Source: Mustelus asterias (taxonomy: Eukaryota). Taken from it: a stretch of DNA of 64,000 nt. The DNA lies in assembly GCF_964213995.1 (NCBI RefSeq), contig NW_027590164.1, positions 558,001 through 622,000 on the forward strand. The letters are read 5' to 3'. Below the pieces are notes generated by a model, which worked only from the letters and a program-made list of their open reading frames with translations, was not told the DNA's origin and did not search any database. A program made the position numbers and the translations under genes. This document shows, one piece after another, positions 1 through 62,502 of this stretch. Each line of letters starts with the position of its first letter. Within the stretch, counting starts at the first letter, position 1.

Positions 1-688
1 ATAAAAATAAAATTTAAAAAGGCTAATGACAATTGTCGTAGCAACCCATCTTCGTTCACTGATATCCTTTAGGGAAGGAAATCTGCCATCCTTATTTGGC
101 AATATGGTTAGGGATGGACAATAATCATTGGCAATGCTCACATCCCATTAATTAAAAAAAACACACAATGATACAGATTGGTTCTGCCACAGTTGTCAGG
201 AAGAGTCAGCAGCCAGGAATTGGACAATGTCTTCAGATTTCCCAGTTTATTATTGGAGGACTGGTGTCAGACAAATTAAACATCAGGCTGATGTGCAGGG
301 CAACTTGGAGGTGATGTTCACATATAGCTGCTTACCCTAGTCATTCTAGACTGTGGAGATTGAGGGTTTGGGATATTCTGTCACTGTTCCTGTCAAGTTG
401 TACATATAAAAAATCTCTACTTCGCTCTGCCTCTCTCACCTCTTTCTCTCTCATCCCATTGCTGTGGCAAGTTTCCTGCCCTCATGTTGGTTCCATAAAC
501 CAGCAGATCCATTCCGTTCAATTTTACAAACTGCCTTTGTGATCTTGTGGGTTTTCTCATTCTCTCTTTTTTTCTGTTTTAAATCTCTCAGAATATTTGA
601 AGAGAAGGATTTGCAGCCGGGACATTCAAACCCACAGCAGAATCTGACAGAATTACCCAATTTATCGTAACCCGACTATCATTTTACT

Positions 689-1741
689 TTGAACATGGAT
701 GAAAAAAGCACCATTCACAGTGGAGAGAAACCGTTTATGTGTGCTGTGTGTGGACAGGGCTACAGTCGATCATCTGGCCTGTCGAAACACAAACGCAGTC
801 ACACTGGAAAGAAGTTGTGTAAATGTGGGTCTGTGGGAAGGAATTTAATTTCCCATCTGAGCTGGAAATGCAGTGACGCTGTCACACCGGGGAAAAGCTG
901 TTTAACTGTTCCGAGTGTGGGAAGGGATTTAATCGCAACGCGCATCTGCACCAACACCAGCGCGTTCACACGAGGGAGAGACCATTCACTTGCTCAGTGT
1001 GTGAGAAGGGATTTACTAGTTCATCTATCCTGCTGAGACACAAGCAGGTTCATACAGACGAAAGACCTTTCAAATGCGCAGAGTGCGGGAAATGCTTTAA
1101 TAGTTCGAGGGAACTGATGAGCCATCGGGGCGGCACGGTAGCACAGTGGTTAGCACTGCTGCTTCACAGCTCCAGGGTCCCGGGTTCGATTCCCGGCTCG
1201 GGTCACTGTCTGTGTGGAGTTTGCACATTCTCCTCGTGTCTGCGTGGGTTTCCTCCGGGTGCTCCGGTTTCCTCCCACAGTCCAAAGATGTGCAGGTTAG
1301 GTTGATTGGCCAGGTTAAAAATTGCCCCTTAGAGTCCTGAGATGCGTAGGTTAGAGGGATTAGCGGGTAAAAATATATGTGTGGGGGTAGGGCCTGGGTG
1401 GGATTGTGGTCGGTGCAGACTCGATGGGCTGAATGGCCTCCTTCTGCACTGTAGGGTTTCTATGATTCTATGAACTCATTCACTCTGATGAAAGACCGTT
1501 CAGGTGCTCTCACTGTGAGGCTGGGTTCAAGCATTCGTATCAACCCTCTCTCCACCAGCGCACTCACACTGGGGAGAGGCCGTACACCTGCTCCCAGTGT
1601 GGGAAGAAGTTCACTCAGCCATCCCATCTTCGGTTACACGAACGGGTTCACTCTGGGGAGAAACCATTCACTTGCACTGTCTGTAAGAAGAAATTTGCTC
1701 ATTCATCCCATATGTTGAAACACCAGCGAGGTCACAAGTAA
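689..1741 (+). pseudogene. C2H2 ZNF pseudogene with a frameshift and a SINE insertion
   Basis: CxxC...HxxxH fingers with TGERP-type linkers. 1-bp deletion near 830 (tgtgggtctgt instead of tgtggggactgt). Removing the SINE at 1127-1472 restores S-H-Q-L-I-H-S-D-E-R-P-F. Stop TAA at 1739-1741. Confidence 0.9.
1127..1472 (+). mobile_element. HE1-type tRNA-derived V-SINE, full length
   Basis: A-box-like tagcacagtggt, B-box ggttcgattcc, V-domain core gtgtggagtttgcacattctcc...gggtttcctccgggtgctccggtttcctcccacagtccaaa, tail ttctatgattctatg. Confidence 0.92.
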
Positions 1742-2829
1742 TTGCAATGATTGGATATTGTTAATCACGCCCAGGATTGAACTGTGTTCATTTGGGGTCT
1801 GTTTTTGCTGATGTTACTAACCTCCAGTCCAGTTATACAAGTGCTAATCTTCTGGCTAAAAGTCAAATAAACTGGCTTTGTGTTAAACAATGTGAGTCGC
1901 TTGAATATCAGACGCAAGTTAATTCCTTCTGAAGGATTCTCCGTCTTTCTATCTGCTCCATCCTCACCTCCAAGTGAGAGGAACTCATGGATCTTCTTTG
2001 ATTGGAAGATTTCAATCTTAGTGACAGTTGCCTCTGCCGTGTCCATCCCATGCACTAACCCACTGAGCTAAAATACCCCTTATCTGAGTCCTGCATCTGT
2101 ATCTTTCTCCAGATTCTCCTACCTCCCCTCATGACCTCTGCCCTCAAGACCCACTTCCTGCACCTTCTATCGTATTCTCGCTGAACTGCTGACTACACAA
2201 CATCCCCATGTGAGCTTACATTGTTAATGGTTCGCATCTTTCTTCGGATATTGTCCCTCTTTCCTTTAAATCTGTTGTCATCTCCCCCCACTCCCCCCAA
2301 AATAACAAACACATCACTCCTGCATCAGTCCCTGGTTAAGCAGCACCCTTGTTTTAAAATTTCTATCCTTATTTTCAATCACTGTATGGCCTCGCCCTTC
2401 CCTATCTTTGTAATCTTCTCCAGCCCCACAACTCTCAAACATCAGATCATTTACAATTCTGGCCTACCAATGGTAGCAGTGCTTTCAGCGTCATCACCTG
2501 TAAGCTCTGGAAATCCCTCCATAAGCCTCTCTACCTCTTTCTCCTTCTTTACGATGCTTCTTAAATGCTTCTTCAAAACTTTGTAAGTGCAGAGGATTGC
2601 TGTAAAATAAGACATGCTGTAGAAGCTTTTTCATTTAACAGGACAGATACAAGAATAGCAAATTTCAAAGGGAACAACAATTTATTCTGTGTGGAAAGAG
2701 GTTGCTGATGGGTTGGGAAGTTGATTCTGGCTGAGTCATTGCAATGTGGAATGCTCCAGGGAACAGTTTGTTCCTCCGTGCTTTTGTTTAATTGGAAAAT
2801 TGAAAGGAGGGAGATGGCAAGTCGCTCAC

Positions 2830-3945
2830 ACCAATTGCTGGGAATTGTAGAAAGAATGAACCGCACATGAAGCTCGTTCTCAGAAAATAACTGGATGGAA
2901 CAGCACAAAGTGGAATGAAGAACTTCCACTGGTTCTCATGAGTATCTGGAGTAGGTTCCTATTAGCCCCATCCAACCACAGGAGTGTCATATTGGAGACC
3001 AAGTGAGGGTAAGAAATTGTGCAAAGGGAGATGTGTTTGGACCTCTGTATAAGGGACCATACACTACAGTGGATAAGGTCAGTTGTATTGAATATGCAAA
3101 CGGGCGGCACGGTGGGGCACAGTGGTTAGCATTGCTGCCTCACAGCGCCAGGGACCCGGGTTCAATTCCTGGCTTGGGTACTATCTATGTGGAGTTTGCA
3201 CGTTCACCCCGTGTCTGCATGGGTTTCCTGCGGATGCTCCAGTTTCCTCCCACAGTCCGAAAGACGTACTGGTTAGGTGAATTGGCCATGCTAAATTCTC
3301 CCCCAGTGTACCTGAACAGGCACGGAGTGTGGCAACTAGGGGATTTTCACAGCAACTTCACTGCAGTGTTAATATAAGCCTATTTGTGGCACAAATAAAA
3401 TAATAAACGTTTTTTCTAAAAAGTCAAATGGTTTTCTCATAACTCAGTGAAGCTCAGAGTCCCAGATAACGGAAGAAGCTGAGAAGGATCAGGACTGTTA
3501 CGTACGTGGTGAAGAATATGCTGCGGACCTGGGACAATGATGAAAAAGAAGTGAAAAGTGCACCTGTACCATGGCTATTGTATCAGGAGGACGTTAAGAT
3601 GGAAGCTCAATCCCCCTCAGCATCTTCATCTGGATGTTATCCAAAACCACATTAGGAAGGAGAATGATATCCAAAATGTCAGACAGTAACGGGGTATAAT
3701 GAATGATGCTGCAACAGCTTTTAACACCAGGGTTGTTAATACCATTAACTTAGCCACTCTGAAGATCAGATCTTAACCATACATTTACAACATATGGTCA
3801 GGCCCTAAAGTCTCACGTACAAATGATCAATCAAATTATTAAAGAAAGTAAAATTGTATTAAGTGAATCAACTGAATGTATAATGTATGGATCTTGGTTG
3901 GTGGAACAAGCCAGAGAGATTATATAGTATATTGCTAAAGGAAGA
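2830..3945 (+). mobile_element. Decayed LTR retroelement: integrase C-terminus followed by an env-like segment
   Basis: Fragments read GIVERMNRT, EELPLVLMSI, GDQVRVRN..FGPLYKGPY (GPY/F motif), then RQ*R-GIMNDAATAFNT and CIMYGSWLVEQAREI. Split by the SINE at 3102-3404. Confidence 0.65.
3102..3404 (+). mobile_element. V-SINE, second subfamily with a different 3' tail
   Basis: HE1-like head and core, but the tail is aacttcactgcagtgttaatataagcc...aataaa instead of (ttctatga)n. Confidence 0.85.
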
Positions 3946-10045: not shown

Positions 10046-11251
10046 ATGGAAAGAAAAAGCACCGTTCACAGTGGAGAGACACTGTACACGTGTTCTGTGT
10101 GCGGACGAGGCTTCAGCCGATCATCTGGTCTGGCAAAACACAAATGCAGCCACTCCATGGAAAAACTGCAGAAATGTGAGGACTGTGGGAAGGAATTTAA
10201 TTACCCATCCCAGCTGGAAACTCATCAGCGCAGTCACACTGGGGAGAGACCATTCACCTGCTCTGAGTGTGGGAAGGGATTCACTCTGTCATCCCACCTA
10301 CTTACTCATCAGCGGGCTCACACTGATGAGAGACCTTTTAAATGCTCAGACTGTGGGAAGTGTTTCAAAAGTGCTGGTGAACTGATGTCCCATCAACGTG
10401 TTCACACTGATGAGAGACCATTCAGGTGCCCTTACTGTGGGACTGGGTTCAGGCATTCACATCACCTCACTGTACACCAGCGAGTTCACACTGGGGAGAG
10501 GCCATTCACCTGCTCTGAGTGTGGAAAAGGATTCACTCGGTCATCCCGCCTGCTGACACACCAGCGAGTTCACACTGGGGAGAGACCTTTTAAATGTTGT
10601 GACTGTGAGAAGTTCTACAAAAGTGCTGGTGAACTGATTTCCCATCAACGTGTTCACACCGAAAAGAAACCATTCAGGTGCTCTCACTGTGAGGCTGGGT
10701 TCAGGCGATCATATGACCTCGTTCTACACCAGCGCACCCACACTGGGGAAAGGCCATTCACCTGCTCTGAGTGTGGAAAGGGATTCACTCGGTCATCCCG
10801 CCTGCTGCAACACCAGCGAGTTCACACTGGGGAAAGGCCATTCACCTGCTCCGAGTGTGGAAAAGGATTCACTAAGTCATCCACCCTGCTGACACACCAG
10901 CGCACTCACACTGGGGAGAGACCTTTTAAATGCTCTGACTGTGCGAATTGCTATAAAAGTTCTGGTGAACTGATGTCCCATCAACGTGTTCACACTGATG
11001 AGAGACCGTTCCGGTGCTCTCACTGTGAGGCTGGGTTCAGGCGATCATCTGACCTCACTGTTCACCAGCGCACCCACACTGGGGAAAGGCCATTCACCTG
11101 CTCCGAGTGTGGGAAGGGATTCATTCAGTCTTCCAGCCTGCTGAGACACCAGCGCACTCACACCGGGGAGAGACCATTCATCTGCTCCGAGTGTGGGAAG
11201 GGATTCACTCAATCATTCCACCTGCTTAAACACCAAAGAATTCACCAGTAA
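10046..11251 (+). CDS. C2H2 zinc-finger protein, 14 fingers, no recognisable effector domain
   Basis: Uninterrupted ORF of about 401 aa from ATG 10046, with 14 CxxC-x12-HxxxH units and TGERP/TDERP linkers. Candidate acceptor tttcacag at 9941. AATAAA near 11369. Confidence 0.9.
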
Positions 11252-12962: not shown

Positions 12963-15012
12963 AAAAGAACAAAGAATAATACAGCACAGGAACAGGCCCT
13001 TCGGCCCTCCAAGCCCACGCCGCTCCCTGGTCTAAACTAGACCATTCTTTTGTATCCCTCCATTCCCACTCCATTCATGTGGCTATCGAGATAAGTCTGA
13101 AATGTTCCCAGTGTGTCCGCCTCCACCATCCTGCCTGGCATTCCAGGCCCCCACCACCCTCTGTGTAAAATACGTCCTTCTGATATCCGTGTTAAACCTC
13201 CCCCCCACCCCCCTCACCTTGAACCTATGACCCCTCGTGAATGTCACCACTGACCTGGGAAAAAGCTTCCCACTGTTCACCCGATCTATGCTTTTCATAA
13301 TTTTAGACACCTCTATTAGGTCACCCCTCATCCTCCGTCTTTCCAGTGAGAACAACCCCAGTTTACCCAATCTCTCCTCATAACTAAGCCGTTCCATACC
13401 AGGCAACATCCTGGTAAACCTCCTCTGCACTCTCTCTAAAGCCTCCACGTCCTTCTGGTAGTGTGGCGACCAGAACTGGACGCAGTATTCCAAATGCGGC
13501 CGAACCAACGTTCTATACAACTGCAACATCAGACCCCAACTTTTATACCCTATGCCCCGTCCTATAAAGTCAAGCATGCCATATGCCTTATTCACTACCT
13601 TCTCCACTTTTGACGTCACCTTCAAGGATCTGTGGACTTGCACACCTAGGTCCCTCTGCGTGTCTACACCCTTTATGGTTCTGCCAATTATCTTAGAGCT
13701 CCCCCCTACGTTAGTTCTACCAAAATGCATCACTTCGCATTTATCTGGATTGAACTCCATCTGCCATTTCTTTGCCCAAATTTCCATCCTAACTATATCC
13801 TTCTGTAGCCTCTGACAATGTTCCTCACTATCTGCAAGTCCAGCCATTTTCGTGTCATCCGCAAACTTACTGATCACCCCAGTTACACCTTCTTCCAGAT
13901 CGTTTATATAAATCACAAACAGCAGAGGTCCCAATACAGAGCCCTGCGGAACACCACTAGTCACAGGCATCAAGCCGGAAAAAGACCCTTCCACTGCCAC
14001 CCTCTGTCTTCTGTGACCAAGCCAGTTCTCCACCCATCTAGCCACCTCCCCCTTTATCCCATGAGACCCAACCTTTTGCACCAGCCTACCATGAGAGACT
14101 TTGTCAGATGCTTTACTAAAGCCCATACAGACGAAATCCACGGCCCTTCCCTCGTCAACCATTCTAGTCACCTCTTCAAAAAACTCCACCAGGTTAGTGA
14201 GGCATGACCTCCCTCTCACAAAACCATGCTGACTATCATTAATGAGTTTATTCCTTTCTAAATGCGCATACATCCTATCTCTAAGAACCCTCTCCAACAA
14301 CTTCCCCACCACGGACGTCAAGCTCACCAGCCTATAATTTCCCGGGTTATCCTTCCAACCCTTCTTAAATAACGGGACCACATTAGCTATCCTCCAAGCC
14401 TCTGGGACCCCACCTGTATCCAGTGACGAGACAAAGATTTGCGTCAGAGGCCCAGCGATTTCACCTCTCGTCTCCATGAGCAGCCTTGGATAGATTCCAT
14501 CAAGCCCTGGGGATTTGTCAGTCTTTACATTCCCTAAAAAACCTAACACTTCCTCCCTTGTAATGGAGATTTTTGCTAACGGGTCAACACTCCCCTCCGA
14601 GACACTCCCAGTCAACACATACCTCTCCTTTGTGAATACCGACGCAAAGTATTCATTTAGGATCTCCCCTACTTCTTTGGGCTCTCAGCATAATTCCCCA
14701 CTTTTGTCCCTGAGAGGTCCGATTTTTTTCCCTGACAACCCTTTTGTTCCTAACATATGAATAAAATGCCTTGTGATTCTCCTTAATCCTGTCTGCCAAG
14801 GACATTTCGTGACCCCTTTTTGCCCTTCTAATTCCTCGTTTGAGTTCTTTCCTACTTTCTTTGTATTCCTCCAGAGCTCCCTCCATTTTTAGCTGCCTGA
14901 ACCTAACGTACGCCACTCTTTTCTTTTTGATCAATCCCTCAATTTCCCTGGTTATCCACGGTTCTCGAATCCTACCCTTCCTATCCTTTTTTACAGGCAC
15001 ATGCCTATCCTG
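12963..15012 (-). mobile_element. CR1-clade (HER1-like) LINE, 5'-truncated, RT region
   Basis: ORF 13083-14618 contains PGNYRLVSLTS, QHGF, GVPQGSVLGP, KFADDTK and RPHLEYCVQFWSP. The 3'UTR and tail end near 12963. Confidence 0.93.
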
Positions 15013-16776: not shown

Positions 16777-16914
16777 TTTAAATGCTGAGATTGTGACAGG
16801 AACATTAAAAACCCATATTTACTGATCCTTCACCTGTGCATTCACATGGTTCCACTCCACTCATCTGTTCTCAGTCCAGGAAGAGGTTCAGGTGATTGTC
16901 ATCCTGAAGCAAAA

Positions 16915-17350
16915 CTAGTGAGTTCACTTCGAGGAGAGGTCATTCACCTGCTTCATGTGTGGGAAGCGATTCACTAATTCATTCACCTTGTTAACACACC
17001 AGTGGGTTCACGCTGATGGAATATCTTTTGAATGTATGGATTATACAAAGTGTTTTAAAATCTGTGGAGTTGATTTGCCATCAGCATGTTCACTCTGACA
17101 GGCACCCATCCAGAAGCTCTCACTGTGGGACTGGGTTCAGGTGATCATGTGAACTCAGTGTCCACCAGCGCATTGACTCTGAGGAGAATCGCTCACCTGC
17201 TCCATGTGTGGGGAGAGATTCACTCAGTTGTCCCACTTCAACACACATCAACTTGTTCACACTGATAAGGAACCTTTCAAAGTCCTGTTTGTGAGAAGTG
17301 AGTTAAATGCAAAATATATCTGCTGATACACAAACACATTCACACGGGTC
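16915..17350 (+). pseudogene. Degenerate C2H2 ZNF relic
   Basis: gaggagaggtcattcacctgcttcatgtgtgggaagcgattc...caccagcgcattgactctgaggag: about 5 decayed fingers with indels. Confidence 0.8.
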
Positions 17351-19233: not shown

Positions 19234-19432
19234 GAGTTACAAGTAGAGGACTAACAGACAGGAAACTCAAATCAAGCATCACTTCAAGATCTGACAATGA
19301 CTCAATTCATCAGGATCTGAATACCATCGGCTTCTGAATGTGGAGGGAGAAATGTTTGTGTGTTCTGTCTGTGGGAAAAAAAATCAAACATCAGCGTAAG
19401 TGGAAAAGCATCAATCCCTCCCCCCCCCCCAC

Positions 19433-19476
<44 letters not shown>

Positions 19477-19845
19477 GTTCCAGTGCAGGGACTGTGGGAA
19501 ATAATTCAATTACCCATTGTGTGGAAATTCATCGACGCACTCACACTGGGGAAAGACTGTTCACCTGCACCATGTGTGGGATGGGATTTTCTCATTTATC
19601 CAATCTGTAGACACCAGCGTAGTCACACCAATGTGAGATCTTTAAATTTTATAACTATGAGAATAGCTTTGAAAGCAACAATATCCTGCAGGAACACCAG
19701 CGCACTCATGCTGGAGTGAAGCCATTCACGTGCCCTATGTGTGGGAAAAGATTCATTCATTAACCAGTGAGTTCTTAATGGTGAGAGACCATTCGTGTGC
19801 CCTGTACATGGGAAAGGGTGTACTCAGTCATCTCATGTGTAAAGT
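19234..19845 (+). pseudogene. Degenerate ZNF unit (leader plus about 4 decayed fingers)
   Basis: Acceptor/leader module, [19 protein letters not shown], stops and indels. Confidence 0.75.
19436..19474. repeat. (CA)n microsatellite
   Basis: About 19 CA units, expanded from the acacacac motif present in paralogous ZNF leaders. Confidence 0.95.
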
Positions 19846-20290: not shown

Positions 20291-21131
20291 ATGGAGAAAC
20301 TGTTGAAATGTGGGGACTGTGGAAAGGGATTCAGTTACCCTTCTGAACTGGAAACTCATCAACGCAGTCACACTGGAGAGAGGCCGTTCACTTGTTCTGA
20401 ATGTGGGAAAGGATTCACTCGACTAACCCACCTCACTGCACACCAACTTATTCACATTGACATGAGACCTTTTAAATGTTCTGACTGTGAGAAGAGTTTT
20501 AAAACCAAATACAATCTTTCGACACACCATCGAGTTCACACTGGGGAGAGGTGGTTCACCTGTGCTGAGTGTGGGAAGGGATTCACTCAGTTATCCAGCC
20601 GGCATTCACACCGGCGAGTTCACACTGGAGAGAAACCATTCACCTGTCCTGAGTGCGGGACGGCATTCGCTCAGTTATGCAAAATGTTGGATCACCAGCG
20701 AGTTCACGCTGGGGAGAGGCCATTCACCTGCTGTGTGTGGGAAGGGATTCACTCAGTCATCCACCTTGCTGAGACACAAGCGCATTCACACTGGTGTGAG
20801 ACCATTCACCTGCTCCGAGTGTGGGAAGGGATTCACCCAGTCTGCCCAACTCACTTCACACCAACGTGTTCACTCTGACACGAGACCTTTTAAATGTTCA
20901 GACTGTGAGAAGAGCTTCAAAGGCAAAATGGATCTGCTGATTCACCAGCGAGTTCACACTGGAGAGAGACCGTTTATCTGCTGTGTGTGTGGGAAGCGAT
21001 TCACTCAGCATTCCCTCCGGCTGAAACACCAGCACAGTCACACCAGGGAGACATTATTCATCTGCTCAGTGTGTGGGAAAGGATTCACCCGTGCGAACAC
21101 CCTGCAGAAACACCAGCGAGTTCACAAATGA
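20291..21131 (+). pseudogene. 10-finger C2H2 ZNF with one 2-bp frameshift (pseudogene or sequence error)
   Basis: ORF 20291-20878 holds fingers 1-5 and ORF ending 21131 holds fingers 6-10. One TG unit is missing at 20729-20741 (tgctgtgtgtggg). Confidence 0.85.
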
Positions 21132-23859: not shown

Positions 23860-24137
23860 CTCCAGAGGAGTAATGGCGGCCGGATGCCCCACAATGCCTC
23901 GCGCTGGGGAAATCGCTCAGTAGCCCGGGCTCGAATCTGCGCATGTCCAAGGGAAAGGGGAATCTGCGCATGTGCGGAAATGTTTCTGACCCCTGCTTGA
24001 GGTGTTGACCAATGGAAATTCTTGGAAGACCGGAAGGACTCTGGTCCTCCAGCCAATCAGAGCGCGGTCTTTGTGACAATGCAGGTTGAGCTTCAGACGG
24101 AATCAAACTCCCTCCAAAGAGGCCAAGATCTGTGAGT
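23860..24137 (+). promoter_or_regulatory. ZNF promoter and non-coding exon 1 (donor GTGAGT at 24132)
   Basis: YY1-like aatggcggc, two NRF1-like tgcgcatg, CCAAT x2, ETS ccggaag. Paralogous to 35480-35666 and 56885-57089. Confidence 0.65.
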
Positions 24138-26270: not shown

Positions 26271-26493
26271 GTCATCCAGTCTGCTAAAACACCAATGTGG
26301 TCGCACTGGGGAAAGACCTTTGATATGTTTTGTGCATGAGAAGAGATTCACTGATTCATCCAACCTGCTGAGACACCAGCAAGTCCACATTGAGGAGAGG
26401 CCATTCCCCTGCCCTGAGTTTAGGGAACGTCATCAGTCATCCAACTTGCTGACACACCAACAAGTTCACACCGATTAGAGACCTTTTCTTTTT

Positions 26494-34895: not shown

Positions 34896-35004
34896 TACAA
34901 ACAGAAGCTGTTCTGTTTCAAATCAAACTGCGGGACTTGGAAGAAAATGATGGGAAGATTTTGCAAAGTCCCCTCCCCCACTCCCTCAGCTGGCAGCCCA
35001 GCAC

Positions 35005-37433: not shown

Positions 37434-37812
37434 AATGTGTCTGGATGGATTTTTGAGGAATTATAGAGGAAAGAAGATTCCATAGAAACTAGAATTTTTG
37501 GTTTTGAATTTCTATTCTGCACCAAATGACAACTTTCATGAACTTCTTTTACAGAATATCAGGAGGCGATTTGCAGACATAAATCCCAAAAGACATTAAG
37601 CAATGGCGTAACTGGAAAAGCACCGAGACACACACACACACAGCCGAGTGAGTGCTTCAGTGAACTGACTCTGGAAAGAGCTTTAACCAGTTACACAGCC
37701 TGAAAGAATATCACACCATTCACAGTGAGGAGAAACAGTACACGTGTTGTGTGTGTGTGAACGAGGCTTCAACTGATCATCGAACCTGGAGAGACACAAG
37801 GACACCTGCGTC

Positions 37813-38879
<1,067 letters not shown>

Positions 38880-38935
38880 TGAGACATTATGGCAGTCACA
38901 CCGATTAGAGACCTTTTAAATACTCTGACTGTGGG

Positions 38936-43750: not shown

Positions 43751-44678
43751 TCACTTGTGAATTCGCTGGTGTCTCAGCAAGTGGGACGACCGTTTAAATC
43801 TATTCCCACACTCGGAGCAGCTGAATGGTCTCTCCCCAGTGTGAACTCGCTGGTGTGTGAGCAGATTGGAGATCTGAGTGAATCCCTTCCCACAGTCAGA
43901 GCAAGTGAATGGCCTCTCCCCAGTGTGAACTCGCTGGTGTGCCAACAGGGTGGATGAATGACTGAAACCCTTCCTGCACACAGAGCAGGTGAAGGGTGTC
44001 TCCCCAGTGTGAACTCGCTGGTGTATTAGCAGTTGGGATGATGTTCTAAATCTCTTCACGCAGTTGAACGCAGCTGAACGGTCTGTCCTCAGTGTGAATG
44101 CGCTGGTGGCCCATCAGAGTCTGAGAGCTTTTGAAGCTACGCCCACAGTCTGAGCATTTAAACGGTCTCTCATTCGTGTGAGTGACACGGTGTGTCTGCA
44201 GGGTGGATGAATGACTGAATCCCTTCCCACACACACAGCAGGTGAACGGCCTCTCTCCAGAGTGAACTCGCCGGTGCCTCCACAGGGTGGAACGATCACT
44301 GAATCCTTTCCCACAGTCTGAGCAGGCGAAAGGCCTCTCCCCGGTGTGAACTCGCTGGTGGGTCAGCAGGCTGGATAACTGAGTGAATCCTTTCCCACAC
44401 ACGGAGCAGGTGAACGGCCTCTCCCCAGAGTGAACTCGCTGGTGTCTCAGCAGGGTGGTTGATATACTGAATCCCTTCCCACACACAGAGCAGGTGAACG
44501 GCCTCTCCCCAGTGTGAACTCGCTGGTGTCTCAGCAGGGTGGTTGATATACTGAATCCCTTCCTACACACTGAGCAGGTGAATGGCCTGTCCCCAGTATG
44601 AACTCGTCGATGTGTGTCCAGTGCAGATGGGCACTGGAATCCCTTCCCACAGTCCCCACACTTCCATGGTCTCTCCAT
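43751..44678 (-). pseudogene. 11-finger C2H2 ZNF with one +1 frameshift
   Basis: [10 protein letters not shown]... gives 7 fingers. An extra A near 44065 (caactgc instead of cactgc) shifts the frame, and the remainder ends HQRIHK* at 43751. Acceptor at 45029. Confidence 0.82.
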
Positions 44679-45559
44679 GGTGCCAGTGTCCTTTTGATAA
44701 TGAGTTGATTCCACATCCAAGTACAGAACACGTGTACAGTTTCTCCTCGCTGTGAATGGGGTGATGTTTTTCAGGCTGTGTTACTGGTTGAAGCTCTTTC
44801 CACAGTCAGTTCACTGGAACACTCTCACTCAGGTGTGTGGGGTCTCCATTCTTGTCCAGTCACACTGATGTTTGAAATCTTTTCCCACAGACAGAATAAA
44901 CAAACATTTCTTCTCATACATTCAAACGGCAATTATATTCAGGTCCTGATGAATCCAGTGACTTTGTAACATCTTGTTGTGACGTTTGGTGTGAGATTTC
45001 AGTCTGTAAATTCTCTCCTTCTAATATCCTGTTTATAGAAGTTATCAGTGTAAGTATAGAACTGAAATTCAAAACAGACAATTCTAGTTTCCATGGAATA
45101 TTCTTTGCTTTCTCATTCCCTAAGGTTGTAAATCTCCATCCCACACACTCTCCCCCCCATTGTCATACTGCTGTACCTAATACACACCCTCCCAATTCTC
45201 CTGAAGGTGCTGATTCAGGCTGATTGTCAGACCCATGCTCCTGTCCAGTACAAAGAGACCTGAAAATCTTCATGCAGGCTGCTAGCCAATGTCCACATTA
45301 CTAAACATATTATTTGATCAGCAATAGAAAGGAGATGTAAGGAACAATTTTATTCACGAGTGGTTACGACCTGACCTCACTGCTTCTGTGCATGGTGGAA
45401 TCAGAAATGATCAATGATTTGAAAAATAAATCAGATAGGTGTGAAGGAATTAAAAAGGGAACAGAGTTATGGAGGGGAAATGGGACTGAGTGGATTGGTG
45501 TACAGAGAGTCAGCATGGACTTCTTCCAACTATCACTGGAATATATACAAAATTTCAGG

Positions 45560-49405: not shown

Positions 49406-49729
49406 CAGAATGCTAAATGGAATGAGAGGGAGAGTGTATGTGTGAGGGGCGTGGGTGGAGATTTAAAGAATGTTCCATAGAAACTACAATTGTCTGTTTT
49501 GAATTTCTATCATGTGCTGACAGTGATGATTTTTGTAAACTCCTTTCAGTGGATATTGGAAGGAGAGGTTTGGAAAATGGAAATCTCAAAAGAGTCACTT
49601 GATTCATAAGGACGTGAAAATCATCAACCTTTTTAACATCAGTGTGAGTGGAAAAGCACTGAGATTCTCACACCCGTATCAGAGTGTTCCAGTGCACTGA
49701 TTGTGGAGAGACACAAGGACTCAGACACC

Positions 49730-49958
49730 ATGGAGAAACCATGGAAATATGGAGACTGTGGGAAGGGATTCAGAGCCCCATCTGAGGTGGAATCTCATCG
49801 ACGCAGTCACATCGGGGAGAGACCGTTCATATGCTGCACTTGTGGGAAGGGATTCAATCATTCATCGAATCTGCTGAGACACCAGTGAATTCACACTGCG
49901 GAGAGGCTAGTCACCTGCTCACAGTGTGGGAAGGGATTCAGAGATTCATTCACCCTGC
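49730..49958 (+). pseudogene. Truncated C2H2 ZNF pseudogene
   Basis: [10 protein letters not shown] (Cys->Tyr), premature TGA at 49886-49888, third finger broken off at a G-rich tract. Acceptor at 49549. Confidence 0.85.
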
Positions 49959-50076
49959 GGGGGGGAGGGGGGGGGAGGAGCAGGGGGGGAAAGAGAGGGG
50001 AGGGGAGGAGCAGGGGGGGAAAGAGAAGGGAGGGGAAAGAGAAAGATTGAGAGAGAGAGAAAGATTGAGAGAGAAA
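49959..50076. repeat. Polypurine (G/GA) low-complexity tract
   Basis: ggggaggagcagggggggaaagaga x2 and gagaaagattgagagaga x2. Confidence 0.9.
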
Positions 50077-50093: not shown

Positions 50094-50683
50094 TCGCTTG
50101 TGAAGTTGTTGGTGTCTCTGGAGGTTGGATGACCGATTGAATCCCTTCCCACACACAGAGCAGGTGAATGGTCTCTCCCTGGTGTGAACTCGCTGGTGTG
50201 TCCGCCGTGTGGATGACCTCCTAAACCTCTTTGAGCAGTGAGAGCAGCTAAACGGTCTCTCGTCAGTGTGAATGCGCTGGTGGACCATCAGTTCCCGAGA
50301 GCTTTTGAAGCCACTCTCACAGTCAGAGCATTTAAAGGGTCTGTCTTGGGTGTGAGTGACCTTGTGGCTCAACAGGTTGGGCAACTGAGTGAATCCCTTC
50401 CCACACACAGAGCAGGTGTACGGTCTCTCTCTGGTGTGAACCCGTTGGTGTGTCAACAGATTGTTCAACCGAGAGAATCCTTTCCCACAGTCAGAGCAGG
50501 TGAACGGCCTCTCCCCAGTGTGAACTCCCTGGTGTGTTTGTAAATGGGATAACTGACTGTATCCCTTCCCACACACAGAGCAGGTGAATGTCTCTCCCCA
50601 GTGTGACTGCGCCGATGAGTTTCCAGTGCAGATGGGAACCTGAATCCTTTCCCACAGTCCCCACATTTACACAATTTCTCCAT
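50094..50683 (-). pseudogene. 7-finger C2H2 ZNF pseudogene
   Basis: 1-bp deletion in the first linker (about 50590). Stop codon lost (cac aag CGA versus paralogous cac aag TGA). Exon-1 donor mutated GT->GG near 51443. Acceptor at 51025. Confidence 0.85.
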
Positions 50684-51439
50684 GGTGCGGGTGTCCTTGT
50701 GACTCTCCAGGCTTGACAATCAGTTCAGTTACAACATAACATGGGTGCGGTCTCTCTGCTGCAATGTATTTTCAGGCTGTTTAACTGGTTAAAGTTCTTT
50801 CCACAGTCACTCAGGTGTGTGCATGTTTCAGTGTGTGTGTGTCTCGGTGCTTTTCCAGTCACACTGATGTTTAAAATCTCCTGAAGCAGACAGAGCAGAG
50901 AAACATTTCCATTCTAGGTTCAAAGGTCGATGATATTCAGGTCCCAATGAACTGAGTGACTATGTTAGATTTTGATGTGAAGTTTGGTTTGATCATCGTC
51001 TTTAAATCTTCACCTTCTGATATCCTGCAAAAGGAATTTACAAAATTCATCAATGTCAGCACAGGATAGAAATTCAGAACAGACAGTTCTAGTTTCTCTG
51101 GAACATTCTTTCCTCTCTCATTCCCCAAAAGCTGTGAATCTCCATCCCACACACTCTCCCTCCATTCTCACTCTGCTGTATCTAATATTCACCCTCCCAA
51201 TTCTCCTGAAGGTGCTGATTGAGGCTGATTGATAGATCCACGCTCACTGCTTCCTGTCCTGGGCACAGAGAGAGCTGAAAATTTCCATGCAGGCTGCCAG
51301 ACAGATAAATGTCTACATTACTGGAGTAACAATGTGTGGAATGTACAGACCGGATTCACTTCATTCCCTTCAGTTGCTGCAAGTCCCCAATTTCCCCCAG
51401 AATGAGAAAAGAAATGGAAAGGGGGAAACATTGATTTCC

Positions 51440-54057: not shown

Positions 54058-54556
54058 TTTCCTCTCTCATTCCCCGAAAGCTGTAAATCTCCATCCCACA
54101 CACTCTCCCTCCATTCTCACTCTGCTGTATCTAATATTCACCCTCCCAATTCTCCTGAAGGTGCTGATTGAGGCTGATTGACAGATCCATGCTCACTGCT
54201 TCCTGTCCACCACACACAAATCATAAGAAACAGGAGCTGCAGTTGGTCATTCAGCCCATCGAACTGCCTCAACCATTCATTGAGAATTGGCTGATCTACC
54301 GCAGCATCATTTCCCATGCTATCCAGCAGATAGAGAGAGAAAAGAGCCAATGTTTCGTGTCTGGAGAGAGGAAAGAATGTTCCATAGAAACTAGAATTGT
54401 CTGTTCTGAATTTCTATCCTGTACTGACACTGATGACCTCTGTAAACTTGTTTTACAGGATACTGAAAGAGGAATCACAGGCTGAAATCTCAAACGTCAC
54501 ATCTAGATCTGACAGAACAGTCTTCAACTGAAGAGAGAGGCAAGGACACCTGCACC

Positions 54557-55327
54557 ATGGAGAAACCATGGAAATGTGCGGACTGTGGGAAGAGATACAG
54601 AGTCCCATCTCTGCTGGAAGCTCATCGGCGCAGCCACACTGGGGAGAGACCATTCACCTGCTCTCAGTGTGGGAAGGGATTCACTCGGGAATCCAACCTG
54701 CAGAGACACCAGCGAGTTCACACTGGGAAGAGACCGTTCACCTGCTCTCAGTGTGAGAAGGGGTTCACTGATATTTCCACCCTGCGGAAACACCAGCGAG
54801 TTCACACTGGGGAGAGGCCGTTCACCTGCTCTCAGTGTGGGAAAGGGTTCAGTCAATCATCCCACCTGCAGAGACACCAGCAAGTTCACACTGGGGAGAG
54901 ACCATTCACCTGCTCTCAGTGTGGGAAGGGATTCACTGATTTATTCACCCTGCGGAGACACCAGCGAGTTCACACTGGGGAGAGACTGTTCACCAGACTG
55001 TTCACCTGCTCTCAGTGTGAGAAGGGATTCAGTCAGTTATCCAACCTGCGGATACACCAGCGAGTTCACACTGGGGAGAGACCATTCACCTGCTCTCAGT
55101 GCGGGAAGGGGTTCAGTCGATTATCCACCCTGTGGATACACCAGCGAGTTCACACTGGAGAGAGGCCGTTCACCTGCTCTCAGTGTGAGAAGGGATTCAG
55201 TCAGTTATCCAACCTGCAGACACACCAGCGAGTTCACACTGGGGAGAGACCGTTCACCTGCTCTCAGTGTGGGAAGGGATTCAGAGTTTCATCCCAGCTG
55301 CTGAAACACCAGCGAGTTCATGAGTGA
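54557..55327 (+). CDS. C2H2 zinc-finger protein, 9 fingers, intact
   Basis: 256-aa ORF from gcaccATGG with eight CSQC fingers. Acceptor at 54458. Conserved ZNF 3'UTR follows. Confidence 0.88.
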
Positions 55328-56639: not shown

Positions 56640-57089
56640 GGCCAACTTCCCCTTTGTGATGTCACAGTGGAGCCATCCTTGAATCAGCCAATAGGAATCT
56701 CTCTGCGCCGCGGTGACGTCTCCGGGTTCCAGTGCGCAGGCCCGGGCGCGCGGACCCGGGAGCCCCGCCCCCACCTATTGTTCCCCTCCCCCTGCACCAC
56801 ATCGAGCCAAGGTTTCCAGGCAACCGGCTGACGGCTCCGGTCAGAGCGAGAAGCTGCTCGGTGATCTCCCCCTCCCCCCGGCCGGGGACTGCGCATGTCC
56901 AAGGGAGAAGGAAGCTGTGAATTGCAGGGCAGATCCCACCCCCTGACCTTCTGAGGTGTTGACCAATGGGAAGAGTTGGAGGACCGGAAGGACTCTGGTT
57001 CTCCAGCTGATCAGAGCGCTGGCTTTGTGTGAATGAAGATTGAGCTTCAGACAGACTGAAACTTCCTCCTCTCTCCAACATCTGTGAGT
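56640..57089 (+). promoter_or_regulatory. CpG-island ZNF promoter and non-coding exon 1 (donor at 57084)
   Basis: CCAAT, TGACGTC, GC box, tgcgcatg and ccggaag. Paralogous to 23930-24137 and 35480-35666. Confidence 0.65.
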
Positions 57090-60000
57090 GGGAAAGATTG
57101 GATTGTCCAGCCAGTCCACCATATTGGCCGTTCGCTTTGCGTGTTGGCCAGTATAGTGTGCTCCAGGCAGGGGGCGGGCAGAGGATAAGGAGTTCAAGGC
57201 GGGCTTAATGCGCGCCTTGCGGTGAGCTTTTGGAAATGTGGCCGCTGGGAGGAACGCCTTGGTCGGCGTGAAGTTTCTGTTTCAAGTGCTTGGGTTCGTG
57301 ACTTGTGCAAGAACTTTTTGTTTCGGCTGGGGCTTGTTGAATGCTGCTCTCGCTGGGATTTCTGTGCCTTGAAAGGCGTGGCCCGGGTGGATGCAGTCTC
57401 GGAGGGCCCAAGCCAGGGAGGAGCCATTTGGGAACTATTGTTTCGGAAGGTTCAGCCGCGGAAGGTGTGACCCCAGACGGTGCAGCCCCAGTGGGTGTGA
57501 TTTTGGAAGTTCTGGCCCGGAGTGGTGGACTTTGGAGGACTGTAGTTGAGCGTTGTCGACTTCGGACGGTGGAATGTTGATGGGCGAAGCTCTGGAAGGC
57601 GATGCCTCCGAAATGTTTCACAATTGTATGGTTGTTCATGGATTGTTTGTTATTGTAATATGTGGTTTTCCTGTTATGATAGTTGGTGGTTTGTTCCGGC
57701 CCCCGTCTATTTTTCTTGCGTTATTTGTGGCCTGGGGGGCATCCCCCCCTGGATAAAGTCACCCCCGGGGGGTGTGACATCCACTTGGGGAAAGTTCTGG
57801 GTGGTGAAGCCCCGGACATAGTAACACCAGAGGGATTTTTATTCTCCGGGAGAAAAATTGGGAAGGCAGGCCCGAACTGAGTACCCTGGAGAGACTTTCC
57901 CACCGCCCCGGCTGAAATTCCGGAAGGCAGTCCGGATTGAGTAGGCGGGGTGGTTTCCCCCATTTCCCCCCTCCGGCTGAACATCCGTAAGGTGTAACCC
58001 CCGGATATGAGTACCACTGGAGGGTTGCATCCCCCGGCAGGTGGACAAACCCAGGGGACGGTGCCCTTATGCTTCAGTGTTTATTTTTTGTTGTGTACAG
58101 TTGTAGTGTTGTGTTAATGTTTGTAGATTATGATTTGTAAATGGAGGTGTATTTTGAGGGCAATGCCCTGGAAAACTGTAATTGATGATGAACCCTTCCG
58201 AAATGGAAGGTAGTAATTGATAAATGGATGGTGTTAGCCATTGGTAATGTATTTTTCATATCTGTTCTTTGTTCATTTGTAATTGTTTTGTAGTATCGTG
58301 TTTGTACTAACCAACGGAAAATCTTTGCGTTGTTTGTGACCTGGGGGGTATCCCCCCCCCCCCCTCCCCTCCCCTGGATAGAGTGACCCCCGGGGGGTGT
58401 GACATCCAGTTGGGGAAAGTGTCCGGGGCACCCAGAGGGGTAACACCGGGGGGGTTTTGTTCTCCGGGAGAAAATTTGGGAAGGCAGGCCGAATTGAGTA
58501 TCCCGGAGAGCCTTTCCCACCGCCCCAGCCGAAAATCCGGAAGGCAGTCCGGATTGAGTAGGTTCGGGGTGGTTTTCCTGTCCCCCCGCCTCCAGTCGAA
58601 CATCCGTCAGGTGGAACCCCCGGACCTGAGTACCTCTGGAGGGTTGCATCCCCCGGCAGGGGAAAAACCCGGGAGGCGGTGCCCTGGAGGGCGGCGGATA
58701 TGCTGCAATGTTTATTCTTGTTGTGTTGTACTAATGTTTGTCACTTTGTAGATTATGATTTGTAATTGGAGGTGTATTGAGAGGGCAATGCCCTGGAAAA
58801 CTATGACCGTTAGTGAACCCTTCCGAAATAGAAGATAGTAACTGATAAATGGATGCCTCCGAAATGTTTCACAATTGTATGGTTGTTCATGGATTGTTTG
58901 TTATTGTAATATGTGGTTTTCCTGTTATGATAGTTGGTGGTTTGTTCCGGCCCCCGTCTATTTTCTTGCGTTATTTGTGGCCTGGGGGGCATCCCCCCCT
59001 GGATAAAGTCACCCCCGGGGGGTGTGACATCCACTTGGGAAGGCAGGCCCGAATTGAGTACCCTGGAGAGACTCTCCCACCGCCCCGGCTGAAATTCCGG
59101 AAGGGATTCCGGATTGAGGAGGCGGGGTGGTTTCCCCCATTTCCCCCCTCCGGCTGAACATCCGTAAGGTGTAACCCCCGGATATGAGTACCACTGGAGG
59201 GTTGCATCCCCCGGCAGGTGGACAAACCCAGGGGACGGTGCCCTTATGCTTCAGTGTTTATTTTTTGTTGTGTACAGTTGTAGTGTTGTGTTAATGTTTG
59301 TAGATTTGTAGATTATGATTTGTAAATGGAGGTGTATTTTGAGGGCAATGCCCTGGAAAACTGTAATTGACGATGAACCCTTCCGAAATGGAAGGTAGTA
59401 ATTGATAAATGGATGGTGTTAGCCATCGGTAATGTATTTTTCAGATTTGTTCTTTGTTCATTTGTATTTGTTTTGTAATATCGTGTTTGTACTAACCAAC
59501 GGAAAATCTTTGCATTGTTTGTGGCCTGGGGGGTATCCCCCCCACCGGATAGAGTGACCCCCGGGGGGTGTGACATCCAGTTGGGGAAAGTGTCCGGGGC
59601 ACCCAGAGGGGTAACACCGGGGGGGTTTTGTTCTCCGGGAGAAAAATTGGGAAGGCAGGCCGAATTGAGTATCCCGGAGAGCTTTTCCCACCGCCCCAGC
59701 CGAAAATCCGGAAGGCAGTCCGGATTGAGTAGGTTCGGGGTGGTTTTCCTGTCCCCCCGCCTCCAGTCGAACATCCGTCAGGTGGAACCCCCGGACCTGA
59801 GTACCTCTGGAGGGTTGCATCCCCCGGCAGGGGAAAAATCCAGGGGACGGTGCCCTGGAGGGCGGCGGATTTGCTGCAATGTTTATTCTTGTTGTGTTGT
59901 ACTAATGTTTGTCACTTTGTAGATTATGATTTGTAATTGGAGGTGTATTGAGAGGGCAATGCCCTGGAAAACTATGACCGTTAGTGAACCCTTCCGAAAT

Positions 60001-60118
60001 GGAAGGTAGTAACTGATAAATGGATGGCGTTAGCCATTGGTAATGTATTTTTTCACATTTGTTCTTTGTGTATTTGTAACTGTTTTGCATTAACGTATTT
60101 GTAATAAACAAAAAGAAA
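57090..60118 (+). mobile_element. 3.03-kb retroposed insertion (L1/Tx1-type signature) with internal higher-order repeats
   Basis: Exact 15-bp TSD ccaacatctgtgagt (57075-57089 and 60119-60133). AATAAA at 60103 followed by an A-rich tail. Paralogous empty sites at 24125-24150 and 35652-35680. Confidence 0.85.
57601..60060. repeat. Higher-order tandem repeat (A-B)x2 of about 600-bp subunits
   Basis: gatgcctccgaaatgtttcac starts at 57601 and again at 58852. Subunits A and B share cccccggggggtgtgacatcca, tccggattgag and gagggttgcatcccccggcagg. Confidence 0.92.
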
Positions 60119-61055: not shown

Positions 61056-61569
61056 CCGCCTTGGCGAACACTTACCCGAAGATCAGAGGCTGAATGCCCT
61101 TGATCTTCGGGTAAGTGTCCTCCAAGGTGGCCTTCAAGACTCACGACAGTGCAGAATCGCTGAGCAGAAACTGATAGCCAAGTTCCGCACACACGAGGAC
61201 GGTCTCAACCGGGATCTTGGGTTCATGTCACACTATCTGTAACCACCACAACTTGCCTGGGCTTGCAAAATCTCACTAACTGTCCTGGCTTGAGACAATT
61301 CACAACAGTTTAACCTGTGCTTAACCTTCTCTCCACTTGCATTGTACCTGTAAAGACTTGATTACCTGCTAAGACTCGCATTCCAACCATTATCTTGTAA
61401 TGGAGTTTGTGTCTATATATGTCCTGTTTGTGAACCAAATCCTGCACACAGCTGATGAAGGAGCAGTGCTCCGAAAGCTCGTGCTACTGATAAACCTGTT
61501 GGACTTTAACCTGGTGTGGTGAGACTTCTTACTGTGTCTACCCCAGTCCAACGCCGACATCTCCACATC
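61056..61569 (+). mobile_element. Penelope-like element 3' end: GIY-YIG C-terminus and terminal repeat
   Basis: LRVSVLQGGLQDSRQCRIAEQKLIAKFRTHEDGLNRDLGFMSHYL* (stop 61240-61242). CTGATGA...GAAA at 61452-61476. Fold-back 5' end. Confidence 0.78.
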
Positions 61570-61805
61570 CAGGACAGGAAGCAGTGAGCATGGATTTGTC
61601 AATCAGCCTCAATCAGCACCTTCAGGAGAATTGGGAGGGTGAATATTAGATACAGCAGAGTGAGAATGGAGGGAGAGTGTGTGGGATGGAGATTTACAGC
61701 GTTTGGGGAATGAGAGCGGAAAGAATGTTCCATAGAAACTAGAATTGTCTGTTCTGAATTTCTATCCTGTACTGACACTGATGAATTTTATAAACTCCTT
61801 TTGCA

Positions 61806-62502
61806 GGATAGATTTGCAGAAGGTGAGGATTTACAGGCAGAAATCTCAAATCAAACAACACATCAAGACCTGACAGATTTATTCATTTGCTCAGGTTCTG
61901 AATATCATTGGCCTTTGAATCTAAAAGAGAAATCTTTTTCTGTTCTGTTTGCTTCAGAATTCTTTTTTAACATAAATGTGACTGAAAAACCACTGAAACA
62001 CAGATACACCCGAGTGAGAGTGTTCCAGTGTACTGTGTGGAAAGAGATTTAACCAGTTACACAGCCTGAAAATACATCGCAGCATTCACAGCGGGGAGAG
62101 ACTGTACCCGTGTTCTGTGTGAGAGTTAACTCATTGTTGAACCTGGAGAGTCACAAGAACACCCGCACCAGGGGGAAACCGTGTAAATGTGGGGACTGTG
62201 GGAGGCGATTCAGGGTCCCATCACGGCTGGAATCTCATCGACACATTCACACTGGGGAGCGGCCATTCACCTGCTCTGTGTGGGAAGGGATTCACTCAGT
62301 TATTCAGCCTGCAGAGTCACAATCTCACTCACACCAATGAGGGATCCTTTAAATGCTCTGACTGTAGCATTGGCTTCAAAACCTCCGGAGAACCAGTGTC
62401 CCACCAGGTGTCACACTGAGGAGAGACCGTTCATCTGCTCTCACTGCACAAAGAGGTTTAAAAGCTCATTCAATCTGCAGCGACACCAACAAGTTCACAC
62501 TG
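61806..62502 (+). pseudogene. C2H2 ZNF pseudogene
   Basis: Acceptor at 61806 and leader. Start codon mutated (gcaccAGG at about 62170). TG-slippage frameshift near 62280, further indels, truncated by CR1. Confidence 0.85.

What the first reader, a model, noticed from the sequence alone, without database searches (positions are those of the whole stretch)
590..62502. Rapid birth-and-death cluster of effector-less (KRAB-less) poly-ZNF genes in a cartilaginous fish
Seen: about 13 ZNF units in 64 kb, from intact to relic. Each predicted protein is essentially only fingers, with near-constant backbones and variable recognition-helix residues, amid dense young retroelements. Known: tetrapod KRAB-ZFP clusters and cyprinid FiNZ-ZNFs evolve this way to recognise transposons, but carry an N-terminal repressor domain. 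Inference: this may be an independent chondrichthyan TE-recognition ZNF system acting without a classical effector domain, or with an uncharacterised one.
Basis: partly seen in the sequence, partly recalled or inferred. Interest (0 to 1): 0.75.

Follow-up and report, generated by a model that had tools for sequence, protein, structure and literature searches.

The report
Shark finger-only zinc-finger gene family
This shark DNA holds 13 copies, from intact to ruined, of a family of some 2,000 genes whose predicted proteins are nothing but fast-diversifying DNA-reading zinc fingers led by one specially conserved finger, so if they police jumping DNA as similar genes do in mammals, they likely do it without any known silencing domain.

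Summary
Observation confirmed: 13 C2H2 units, 3 intact, 4 truncated, 6 relics, among CR1-type and SINE repeats. They sample an elasmobranch family with 2,224 exact start-context matches in this genome (haplotigs may inflate this). The predicted anatomy is a short exon 1, an intron, then one exon whose first ~350 nt are dead fingers full of stops and frameshifts. The ORF starts at a Kozak ATG six residues before finger 1 and usually ends just after the last finger. No KRAB, SCAN or BTB was found, and presumed-RNA contigs of three organisms carry the upstream stop. Contact residues -1/+3/+6 are purified among fresh copies (omega ~0.4) and diversify between older paralogs (1.7-2.6); one cruder test gave only 0.92. 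Finger 1 diversifies at contacts too, but keeps five other residues nearly fixed (omega ~0.1, shared across shark orders): a candidate cofactor handle, or merely structural. Transposon binding and silencing are untested. Side finding: a retroposon-like element repeatedly inserts at these genes' exon-1 donor. The scan noted this family before on other DNA; my paper searches found no description beyond ORF counts.

The parts
592..1741 (+). U1: broken type-B unit (ATG 695, frameshifts, SINE inserted at 1125-1477)
   Evidence: duplicated 59 kb upstream at 96-97%
10046..11251 (+). U2: intact type-B CDS, 401 aa, one leader finger, then the conserved first-type finger (10175), then 12 more; putative acceptor ~9934-9941
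   Evidence: 5 other copies at 99-100% and 39 paralogs fetched
13086..14684 (-). CR1-type LINE reverse-transcriptase ORF (533 aa)
   Evidence: PF00078 E 2e-30; related pieces across the window
16783..17350 (+). U3: relic finger array
19235..19800 (+). U3b: relic leader and fingers
20291..21131 (+). U4: ATG 20291, 5 fingers, frameshift, 4 more fingers in another frame
23933..24131 (+). U5 putative promoter (two CCAAT boxes, GCGCATG motifs) and short exon 1; donor GT at 24132
   Evidence: inferred from conservation, no RNA joint seen
25214..26472 (+). U5 exon 2: dead-finger leader, CDS 25641-26270 (finger 1 has lost its first Cys; 6 fingers, then frameshift)
32308..33395 (-). U6 exon 2: acceptor at 33395, dead-finger leader, intact CDS 33066-32308 (252 aa, 9 fingers, finger 1 at 33048)
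   Evidence: 32 other copies at 95-99%
34800..35660 (.). CpG-rich putative head-to-head promoter between U6 and U7; U7 exon-1 donor GT at 35661
   Evidence: inferred
37556..38899 (+). U7 exon 2: CDS 37813-38592 (9 fingers, then frameshift), 3 more fingers out of frame
43751..45028 (-). U8 exon 2: CDS 44678-44046 (7 fingers, then frameshift), 3 more fingers out of frame
49465..49960 (+). U9: relic fragment
50097..51024 (-). U10: ATG 50683, frameshift right after finger 1, 6 fingers out of frame
54459..55327 (+). U11 exon 2: shortened leader, intact CDS 54557-55327 (256 aa, 9 fingers)
56884..57083 (+). U12 putative promoter and exon 1; donor GT at 57084
   Evidence: inferred
57090..60118 (+). 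Retroposon-like insertion with A-rich 3' end, flanked by a 15-bp direct repeat (57075-57089, 60119-60133) that is the exon-1 donor sequence
61807..62498 (+). U12 exon 2: start codon lost, array broken and cut by a CR1 piece

Best explanation
The window is a slice of an elasmobranch family of some 2,000 duplicating genes whose predicted proteins are C2H2 fingers only, and which likely act as a diversifying library of DNA readers aimed at mobile or repeated DNA, with the conserved face of finger 1 possibly standing in for the missing effector domain. Steps. (1) Shown in DNA: the ORF opens at a Kozak ATG six residues before finger 1 (or one finger earlier in type B), behind a leader of dead fingers, and usually stops just after the last His. 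(2) Inferred from conserved promoter motifs, donor and acceptor, weakly backed by RNA-type contigs: a short non-coding exon 1 is spliced to that exon. (3) Shown: copies arise by segmental duplication, gain and lose whole fingers, and die by frameshift. (4) Shown by counting methods: contact residues are held fixed among fresh copies and diversify between older paralogs, as expected if binding specificity is the selected trait. (5) Shown: finger 1 diversifies at -1/+3/+6 but keeps Lys, Asp, Pro+1, Glu+5 and Arg+9 nearly invariant. (6) Inferred: that surface docks a shared partner (about 0.3). (7) Inferred by analogy: the targets are transposons (about 0.5). The dead leader is likely the remnant of a longer ancestral N-terminus, so the family probably lost an upstream coding part.
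For: Family size: 2,224 exact matches of the 24-nt start context, 0 for the reversed control. In 464 kb of contiguous sequence, 42 of 52 ORFs with 5 or more fingers carry the first-type finger in position 1 or 2, and 35 of 49 such fingers follow ACC-ATG-G. Leader: 56 of 66 non-redundant copies keep the AG acceptor, their leader lengths fall 20/20/16 across the three frames, and all 56 have at least one in-frame stop; codon -13 is TGA or TAA in 45 of 66. Exon 1: an ATG open to the donor in 13 of 34 copies, in mixed phases, at most 25 codons. Presumed-RNA contigs of three organisms bridge leader, ATG and finger 1, and read the codon -13 stop in 67%, 98% and 99.6% of summed depth. KRAB: 0 of 76 candidates genome-wide. 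SCAN and BTB searches rang 146 and 149 times elsewhere, none on this contig. None of 21 long shark or ray homologues lists KRAB, SCAN or BTB. Selection (gene-level): contacts omega 0.36-0.39 below 4% divergence, 2.5-2.6 at 4-10%, 1.7-2.0 at 10-18%; core 0.05-0.11. Finger 1, which cannot be mis-paired, has contacts at 1.9-4.7 above 4% and its conserved set at 0.07-0.09, against 0.9-1.1 for the same positions in other fingers. The finger-level analysis agrees. The strict finger-1 signature occurs in 21 of 274 retrieved proteins, 19 named as sharks or rays and 2 unnamed. Precedent for a finger as partner dock: Kipferl ZnF4 binds Rhino (PMC11245307, passages).
Against: No binding site, transposon target or partner was shown. 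Seventeen disjoint collinear gene pairs gave contact pN/pS 0.92, against 0.53 for other positions, so not above 1. In one search, 68 of 106 comparisons involved a change of finger number, so internal fingers can be mis-paired, which inflates contact differences; tree edges are not independent and the p-values are optimistic. The conserved set in finger 1 was chosen after seeing the profile, and part of the sample was picked by the start motif. Finger 1 still evolves like a DNA reader, and its fixed residues could simply stabilise a terminal finger. No exon 1-exon 2 joint was among the rows shown (71 rows hidden), the runs are only guessed to be RNA, come from other organisms, and were laid on paralog L108, so expression of the window's own copies is not shown. 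The KRAB search had no working control, and no FiNZ or fish KRAB-like profile was available. Human ZNF146/OZF binds LINE-1 without a domain yet its loss did not derepress LINE-1 in HEK293 cells (PMC8896011, passages). Unplaced contigs may include haplotigs that inflate copy counts.
Confidence: 0.45

Rival explanations
1. They are finger-only DNA binders that act by occupancy (blocking or competing at repeats or promoters) with no recruited partner; finger 1 is conserved because a terminal finger needs extra structural stability.
For: No effector domain. Finger 1 diversifies at contact positions like a reader and is predicted to fold as an ordinary two-strand-plus-helix finger (pLDDT 84). ZNF146/OZF is such a protein (PMC8896011). 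Pro at +1 and a Glu+5/Arg+9 pair fit helix stabilisation (own knowledge).
Against: The constraint (omega ~0.1) falls on positions that are free in internal and last fingers and persists across several shark orders and a skate. In type-B genes an upstream finger decays while this one is kept in second place, so the constraint follows the finger, not the terminus.
Confidence: 0.25
2. The selected targets are not transposons but other fast-evolving DNA (satellites, recombination sites, the family's own loci or host promoters).
For: Diversifying contacts show only that targets change. Zebrafish FZNF knockdown most raised FZNFs themselves, and a maternal subset is hard to reconcile with TE targeting (PMC10547256, passages).
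Against: ZNF and retroelement ORF counts correlate across animals, and sharks are high in both, for example 3,586 and 242,270 in S. canicula (PMC10547256 abstract and supplement rows).
Confidence: 0.17
3. An effector exon is spliced in from elsewhere, through an acceptor close to the ATG or an alternative exon not recognised here.
For: The leader is a recognisable ex-coding acidic stretch plus three fingers, so an ancestor had more upstream. No splice joint was seen. A BTB gene lies inside the ZNF territory on other contigs.
Against: RNA-type contigs run through the stop-bearing leader into finger 1. Leader frames are random and stopped. The Kozak context is conserved. A search with an open piece of the acidic leader found no longer protein among 5 candidates (weak).
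Confidence: 0.07
4. The units are neutral passengers of an unstable segmental duplicon, with no selected function.
For: 10 of 13 window units are damaged; 10 of 32 close copies of U6 are truncated; clusters can expand together with retroelements by structural variation (PMC13709654, abstract only).
Against: Purifying selection among fresh copies, even at contacts (omega 0.36-0.39) and core (0.07-0.11), and frame-keeping whole-finger changes in the CDS against random frames in the leader.
Confidence: 0.06

Closest known systems
Tetrapod KRAB zinc-finger (KZFP) clusters
   Same: Clustered tandem C2H2 genes, one exon for the whole array, segmental birth and death, whole-finger gain and loss, diversifying contact residues, repeat-rich surroundings.
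   Different: No KRAB and no upstream coding exon; the protein starts at a finger. TRIM28 and KRAB-ZFPs are described as sarcopterygian (PMC11603059, passages), and KRAB families as lost or absent in cartilaginous fish (PMC8455134, passages). TE repression is shown for KZFPs, not here.
Cyprinid FiNZ-ZNFs and ray-finned-fish KRAB-like ZNFs
   Same: A non-KRAB lineage-specific expansion, concentrated in a repeat-rich territory, with positive selection at base-contacting residues (PMC10547256, passages).
   Different: FiNZ is a 28-aa acidic domain on its own coding exon. Here exon 1 has no conserved in-frame ORF and the acidic stretch at the start of exon 2 is dead. The family is about three times larger by raw motif count.
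ZNF146/OZF (human 'only zinc fingers')
   Same: A protein of fingers alone that binds a retroelement (PMC8896011, passages).
   Different: OZF is one conserved gene whose loss did not derepress LINE-1 in HEK293; this is a family of thousands under diversifying selection with a diagnostic first finger. Orthology was not tested.
Drosophila Kipferl (ZAD-ZNF)
   Same: Precedent for one finger of an array serving as the dock for a chromatin partner in transposon control (PMC11245307, passages).
   Different: Kipferl has a ZAD domain and is a single gene; no partner is known for the shark finger.

Membership tests
KRAB-ZFP | N-terminal KRAB domain | tested here: not met
   Not in 8 window ZNF ORFs; 0 of 76 candidates genome-wide, control uninformative; not listed for 21 shark or ray homologues
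KRAB-ZFP | Effector exon(s) spliced in frame to the finger exon | tested here: not met
   Leader stopped in 56 of 56 copies with an intact acceptor, random frame; exon 1 without conserved in-frame ORF; stop read in RNA-type contigs. Alternative splicing not excluded.
KRAB-ZFP | Tandem C2H2 array with TGEKP-type linkers in one exon | tested here: met
KRAB-ZFP | Clustered birth-and-death evolution | tested here: met
KRAB-ZFP | Positive selection at helix positions -1, 3, 6 | tested here: met
   omega 1.5-2.6 between paralogs above 4% divergence; 0.92 in 17 disjoint pairs; counting methods, no codon-model likelihood test
KRAB-ZFP | Binds transposons and recruits TRIM28-type silencing | not testable with these tools
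   needs ChIP, knockdown and interaction data
FiNZ-ZNF / KRAB-like ZNF | Short acidic N-terminal domain on its own coding exon | tested here: not met
   No conserved translated N-terminal extension. No FiNZ profile was available for a direct scan.
FiNZ-ZNF / KRAB-like ZNF | Expression at zygotic genome activation; TE derepression on knockdown | not testable with these tools
   no staged RNA available
SCAN-, BTB- or ZAD-ZNF | N-terminal SCAN, BTB or ZAD domain | tested here: not met
   Not in window ORFs; SCAN and BTB matches listed elsewhere in the genome, none on this contig (150 best candidates scored each); ZAD not searched genome-wide
OZF-like finger-only ZNF | Protein consists of fingers only | tested here: met
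   6 residues before finger 1; 1-residue tail in 22 of 43 intact arrays
OZF-like finger-only ZNF | Orthology to ZNF146 | not tested
   no tree built

The most novel reading that the evidence does not exclude
Sharks and rays run a third, domain-free version of the KRAB/FiNZ system: thousands of finger-only proteins recognise transposons and recruit one shared co-repressor through the invariant face of a dual-use first finger, having discarded an ancestral N-terminus that survives as a dead 5' UTR; and a retroposon has in turn learned to insert at the family's exon-1 splice donor.
Probability: 0.22. Interest if true: 0.85.

Novelty: new variant of a known kind. Interest (0 to 1): 0.55.

Why it matters
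Cartilaginous fish lack the KRAB system yet carry over a thousand poly-finger ORFs and very many retroelements, so how they control transposons is open. This family is the obvious candidate. It is also directly testable: more than 2,000 copies share a 24-nt start context that a pair of antisense oligos could block, as was done for zebrafish FiNZ genes, and finger 1 is a 27-residue bait for finding a partner. A positive result would show that vertebrate ZNF-transposon control does not need a dedicated effector domain.

Tried and rejected
Homodimer prediction for fingers 1-2: no verdict, score 0.02 against a mark of 0.32, alignment not used; no evidence either way. Run search: no RNA holder listed; the runs used are guessed RNA from other organisms. 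Depth was high over leader and CDS and low or zero over the intron in the three RNA-type runs, the reverse of the fourth run, but contig depth cannot rank parts of a gene, so it is not counted. The CDS omega was discarded because truncated loci corrupted the alignment; only three clean upstream bins were used for mutation rates. Apparent constraint on the dead leader (p-distance 0.030 against 0.065 in intron) is not claimed, because intron alignments were noisy and synonymous rates are not comparable. Stop-codon readthrough or selenocysteine at the shared TGA was rejected: leaders carry many other stops and frameshifts. My first idea that finger 1 does not read DNA was rejected: its -1/+3/+6 positions diversify. 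Solved-structure search with finger 1 returned only ordinary C2H2 proteins. The representative-library search was swamped by long arrays. Rfam found nothing in the window. Five non-ZNF long ORFs near promoters and the insertion had no Pfam match, and the minisatellite ORF only weak ones. No binding-motif prediction against transposons was run.
Full report
1. Observation. A six-frame scan found 94 C2H2-pattern hits, nearly all in arrays. With self-comparison and start/stop mapping these form 13 units: 3 intact (U2, U6, U11), 4 with 5-9 fingers before a frameshift (U4, U5, U7, U8) and 6 relics. A CR1-type RT ORF, about a dozen related pieces and 14 SINE copies lie between them. The window is bases 558,001-622,000 of a 1.04-Mb contig in a 3.68-Gb genome; homologues mark it as a shark.

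2. Family. A 24-nt pattern spanning the start codon has 2,224 exact matches, with 0 for the reversed control; the first 100 listed lie on eight contigs, most on C23 and C71. Haplotigs may inflate this. U2 has 5 other copies at 99-100%, U6 has 32 at 95-99%, and the window's first 8.7 kb recurs 59 kb upstream at 96-97%. Of the 32 U6 copies, 22 are open to a natural end (17 of the same length, 1 with four more fingers, 4 with two fewer) and 10 are truncated. In a gene-level tree, 68 of 106 links involve a change in finger number. This is birth and death by segmental duplication.

3. Gene anatomy. Conserved blocks upstream of the arrays give a CpG-rich promoter with CCAAT boxes, a short exon 1 with a GTGAGT donor, an intron and an acceptor (motif names are recalled). 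Exon 2 opens with about 350 nt that translate as an acidic stretch and three fingers, all dead. Among 66 non-redundant type-A copies, 56 keep the acceptor AG; their leader lengths fall 20/20/16 across frames and each has 1-10 in-frame stops; codon -13 is a stop in 45 of 66 (this set includes loci picked by the start motif). In 464 kb taken without such picking, 35 of 49 first-type fingers follow ACC-ATG-G, 33 have a stop 18 codons before the first Cys, and 22 of 43 intact arrays end one residue after the last His. Exon 1 has an ATG open to the donor in 13 of 34 copies, in mixed phases and at most 25 codons long. A minority type B, like U2, starts one finger earlier; that extra finger often loses a Cys.

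4. RNA. No run on record as RNA holds the window. Three guessed-RNA runs from three other organisms and one run of unknown kind were laid on paralog L108. Single contigs bridge leader, ATG and finger 1. At codon -13, where L108 itself has a sense codon, the contigs read the stop in 67%, 98% and 99.6% of summed depth. No exon 1-exon 2 joint was among the rows shown. The family is therefore probably transcribed with the dead leader as 5' UTR, but the splice and the expression of the window's copies are not shown.

5. Effector domains. None in 8 window ZNF ORFs. KRAB: 0 of 76 candidates genome-wide, with a blank prokaryotic control. SCAN and BTB searches rang 146 and 149 times elsewhere, none on this contig, which shows the search can see such exons. 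None of 21 long shark or ray homologues lists KRAB, SCAN or BTB. An open piece of the acidic leader found no longer protein (5 candidates; weak).

6. Selection. Three counting methods were used. Finger-level tree (765 internal and 90 first fingers): -1/+3/+6 omega 1.55-1.85, other non-core positions 0.71-0.82, core 0.06-0.11. Seventeen disjoint collinear gene pairs: contacts 0.92, others 0.53, core 0.06. Gene-level tree by divergence (126 CDS, 106 links used): contacts 0.36-0.39 below 4%, 2.5-2.6 at 4-10%, 1.7-2.0 at 10-18%. The binning probably explains the pair result, since 14 of the 17 pairs were under 4% apart. Fresh copies keep their specificity and older paralogs diverge in it. Cys and His positions are fixed by the regex, links are not independent, and internal fingers can be mis-paired.

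7. Finger 1. Defined only as the finger six codons after a Met, it has Trp 91%, Lys 99%, Asp 94%, Pro+1 98%, Glu+5 93% and Arg+9 98%, where internal fingers have Phe, Thr, Gln, Ser, Leu and Arg. It is first or second in 42 of 52 unpicked ORFs; several of the other 10 are damaged. Its contacts diversify (omega 1.9-4.7 above 4% divergence) while the Lys/Asp/Pro/Glu/Arg set is at 0.07-0.09, against 0.9-1.1 in other fingers. The set was chosen after seeing the profile. The strict signature occurs in 21 of 274 retrieved proteins: 19 named as sharks or rays and 2 unnamed. They include Heterodontus, Cetorhinus, Chiloscyllium and Rhinoraja; Pristiophorus has a near match; carcharhiniform records are not counted as independent. 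None of 99 non-chondrichthyan proteins had the Trp-Lys-Cys finger. AlphaFold2 gives an ordinary finger fold. A dock for a partner is plausible but untested, and a structural reason is not excluded.

8. A transposon that targets the family. At 57090-60118 an insertion with an A-rich end sits between two copies of a 15-bp sequence that is the exon-1 donor. Its 3' end has 204 exact matches in the genome; a slightly shorter end pattern is followed by the exact donor 15-mer 65 times, many in head-to-tail arrays with a period near 1.87 kb. Among 14 other array-end junctions examined, two were the window's own or an identical copy, ten had the donor or a near variant with element ends 90-98% and flanks 62-93% like the window's, and two matched only the first 4-6 letters. 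This points to repeated independent insertion with a target preference. Because the donor is duplicated, splicing would likely survive. No coding frame was recognised. This is the only direct transposon-ZNF link found, and it runs from the element to the genes.

9. Comparison and novelty. It evolves like KRAB-ZFPs and FiNZ-ZNFs but fails their defining test. Wells et al. 2023 (PMC10547256: abstract, passages, supplement search with files 3-5 unsearched) count ZNF ORFs in sharks (S. canicula 3,586; C. carcharias 1,851), but the main text has no match for shark, cartilaginous or chondrichth. Other papers seen: PMC8455134, PMC11603059, PMC8896011, PMC11245307 (passages), PMC13709654 (abstract), target-specific element papers (listing only). 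Searches found no description of this family's anatomy or first finger; subscription journals and bioRxiv supplements are not covered. Earlier notes of this scan reached a similar reading on other windows; my reading was stated before I saw them, and they are not independent support. The insertion was not found in them by sequence.

10. Verdict. A real, selected, effector-less ZNF family: a new variant of a known kind. Finger-only anatomy about 0.85, transposon targets about 0.5, finger-1 dock about 0.3. Interest 0.55.

Noticed in passing
window 57090-60118; L105, L107, L109, L181-L200: A ~1.9-kb non-coding retroposon-like element (3.0 kb here through internal duplication) inserts with a 15-bp duplication at the ZNF exon-1 donor of different paralogs and forms head-to-tail arrays; 204 exact 3'-end matches genome-wide, 65 matches with the exact donor behind.
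   Followed up: partly
window 40504-41914: 26-bp minisatellite of about 54 copies, open in three frames; a short relative lies at 29370-29414 inside an older local duplication (27.7-32.0 kb against 39.1-43.5 kb).
   Followed up: no
G000:C71:11446015, C110:1148284, C145:483061: A BTB-domain ORF of about 435 codons lies inside the ZNF territory and is itself duplicated; its relation to the finger genes is unknown.
   Followed up: no
window 34800-35660; also 18284-18691, 46783-47180, 56620-57083: CpG-rich promoter-like modules recur, one between the divergent pair U6 and U7, suggesting shared bidirectional promoters.
   Followed up: partly
leader of type-A genes, e.g. window 33395-33067: The last 200 nt of the dead-finger 5' UTR are 80-95% identical to the family majority, more than the intron, and most leaders hold upstream ATGs; this may be regulation or gene conversion.
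   Followed up: partly
P0027, P0269: Ray proteins carry a variant lead finger that keeps Pro+1, Glu+5 and Arg+8/+9 but not Trp-Lys-Cys, hinting that the helix face is the older conserved part.
   Followed up: no
L196 (G000:C3:8938346-8941559): A copy of the insertion lies in a SINE beside an ORF that looks like a class C G-protein-coupled receptor exon (label from recall).
   Followed up: no
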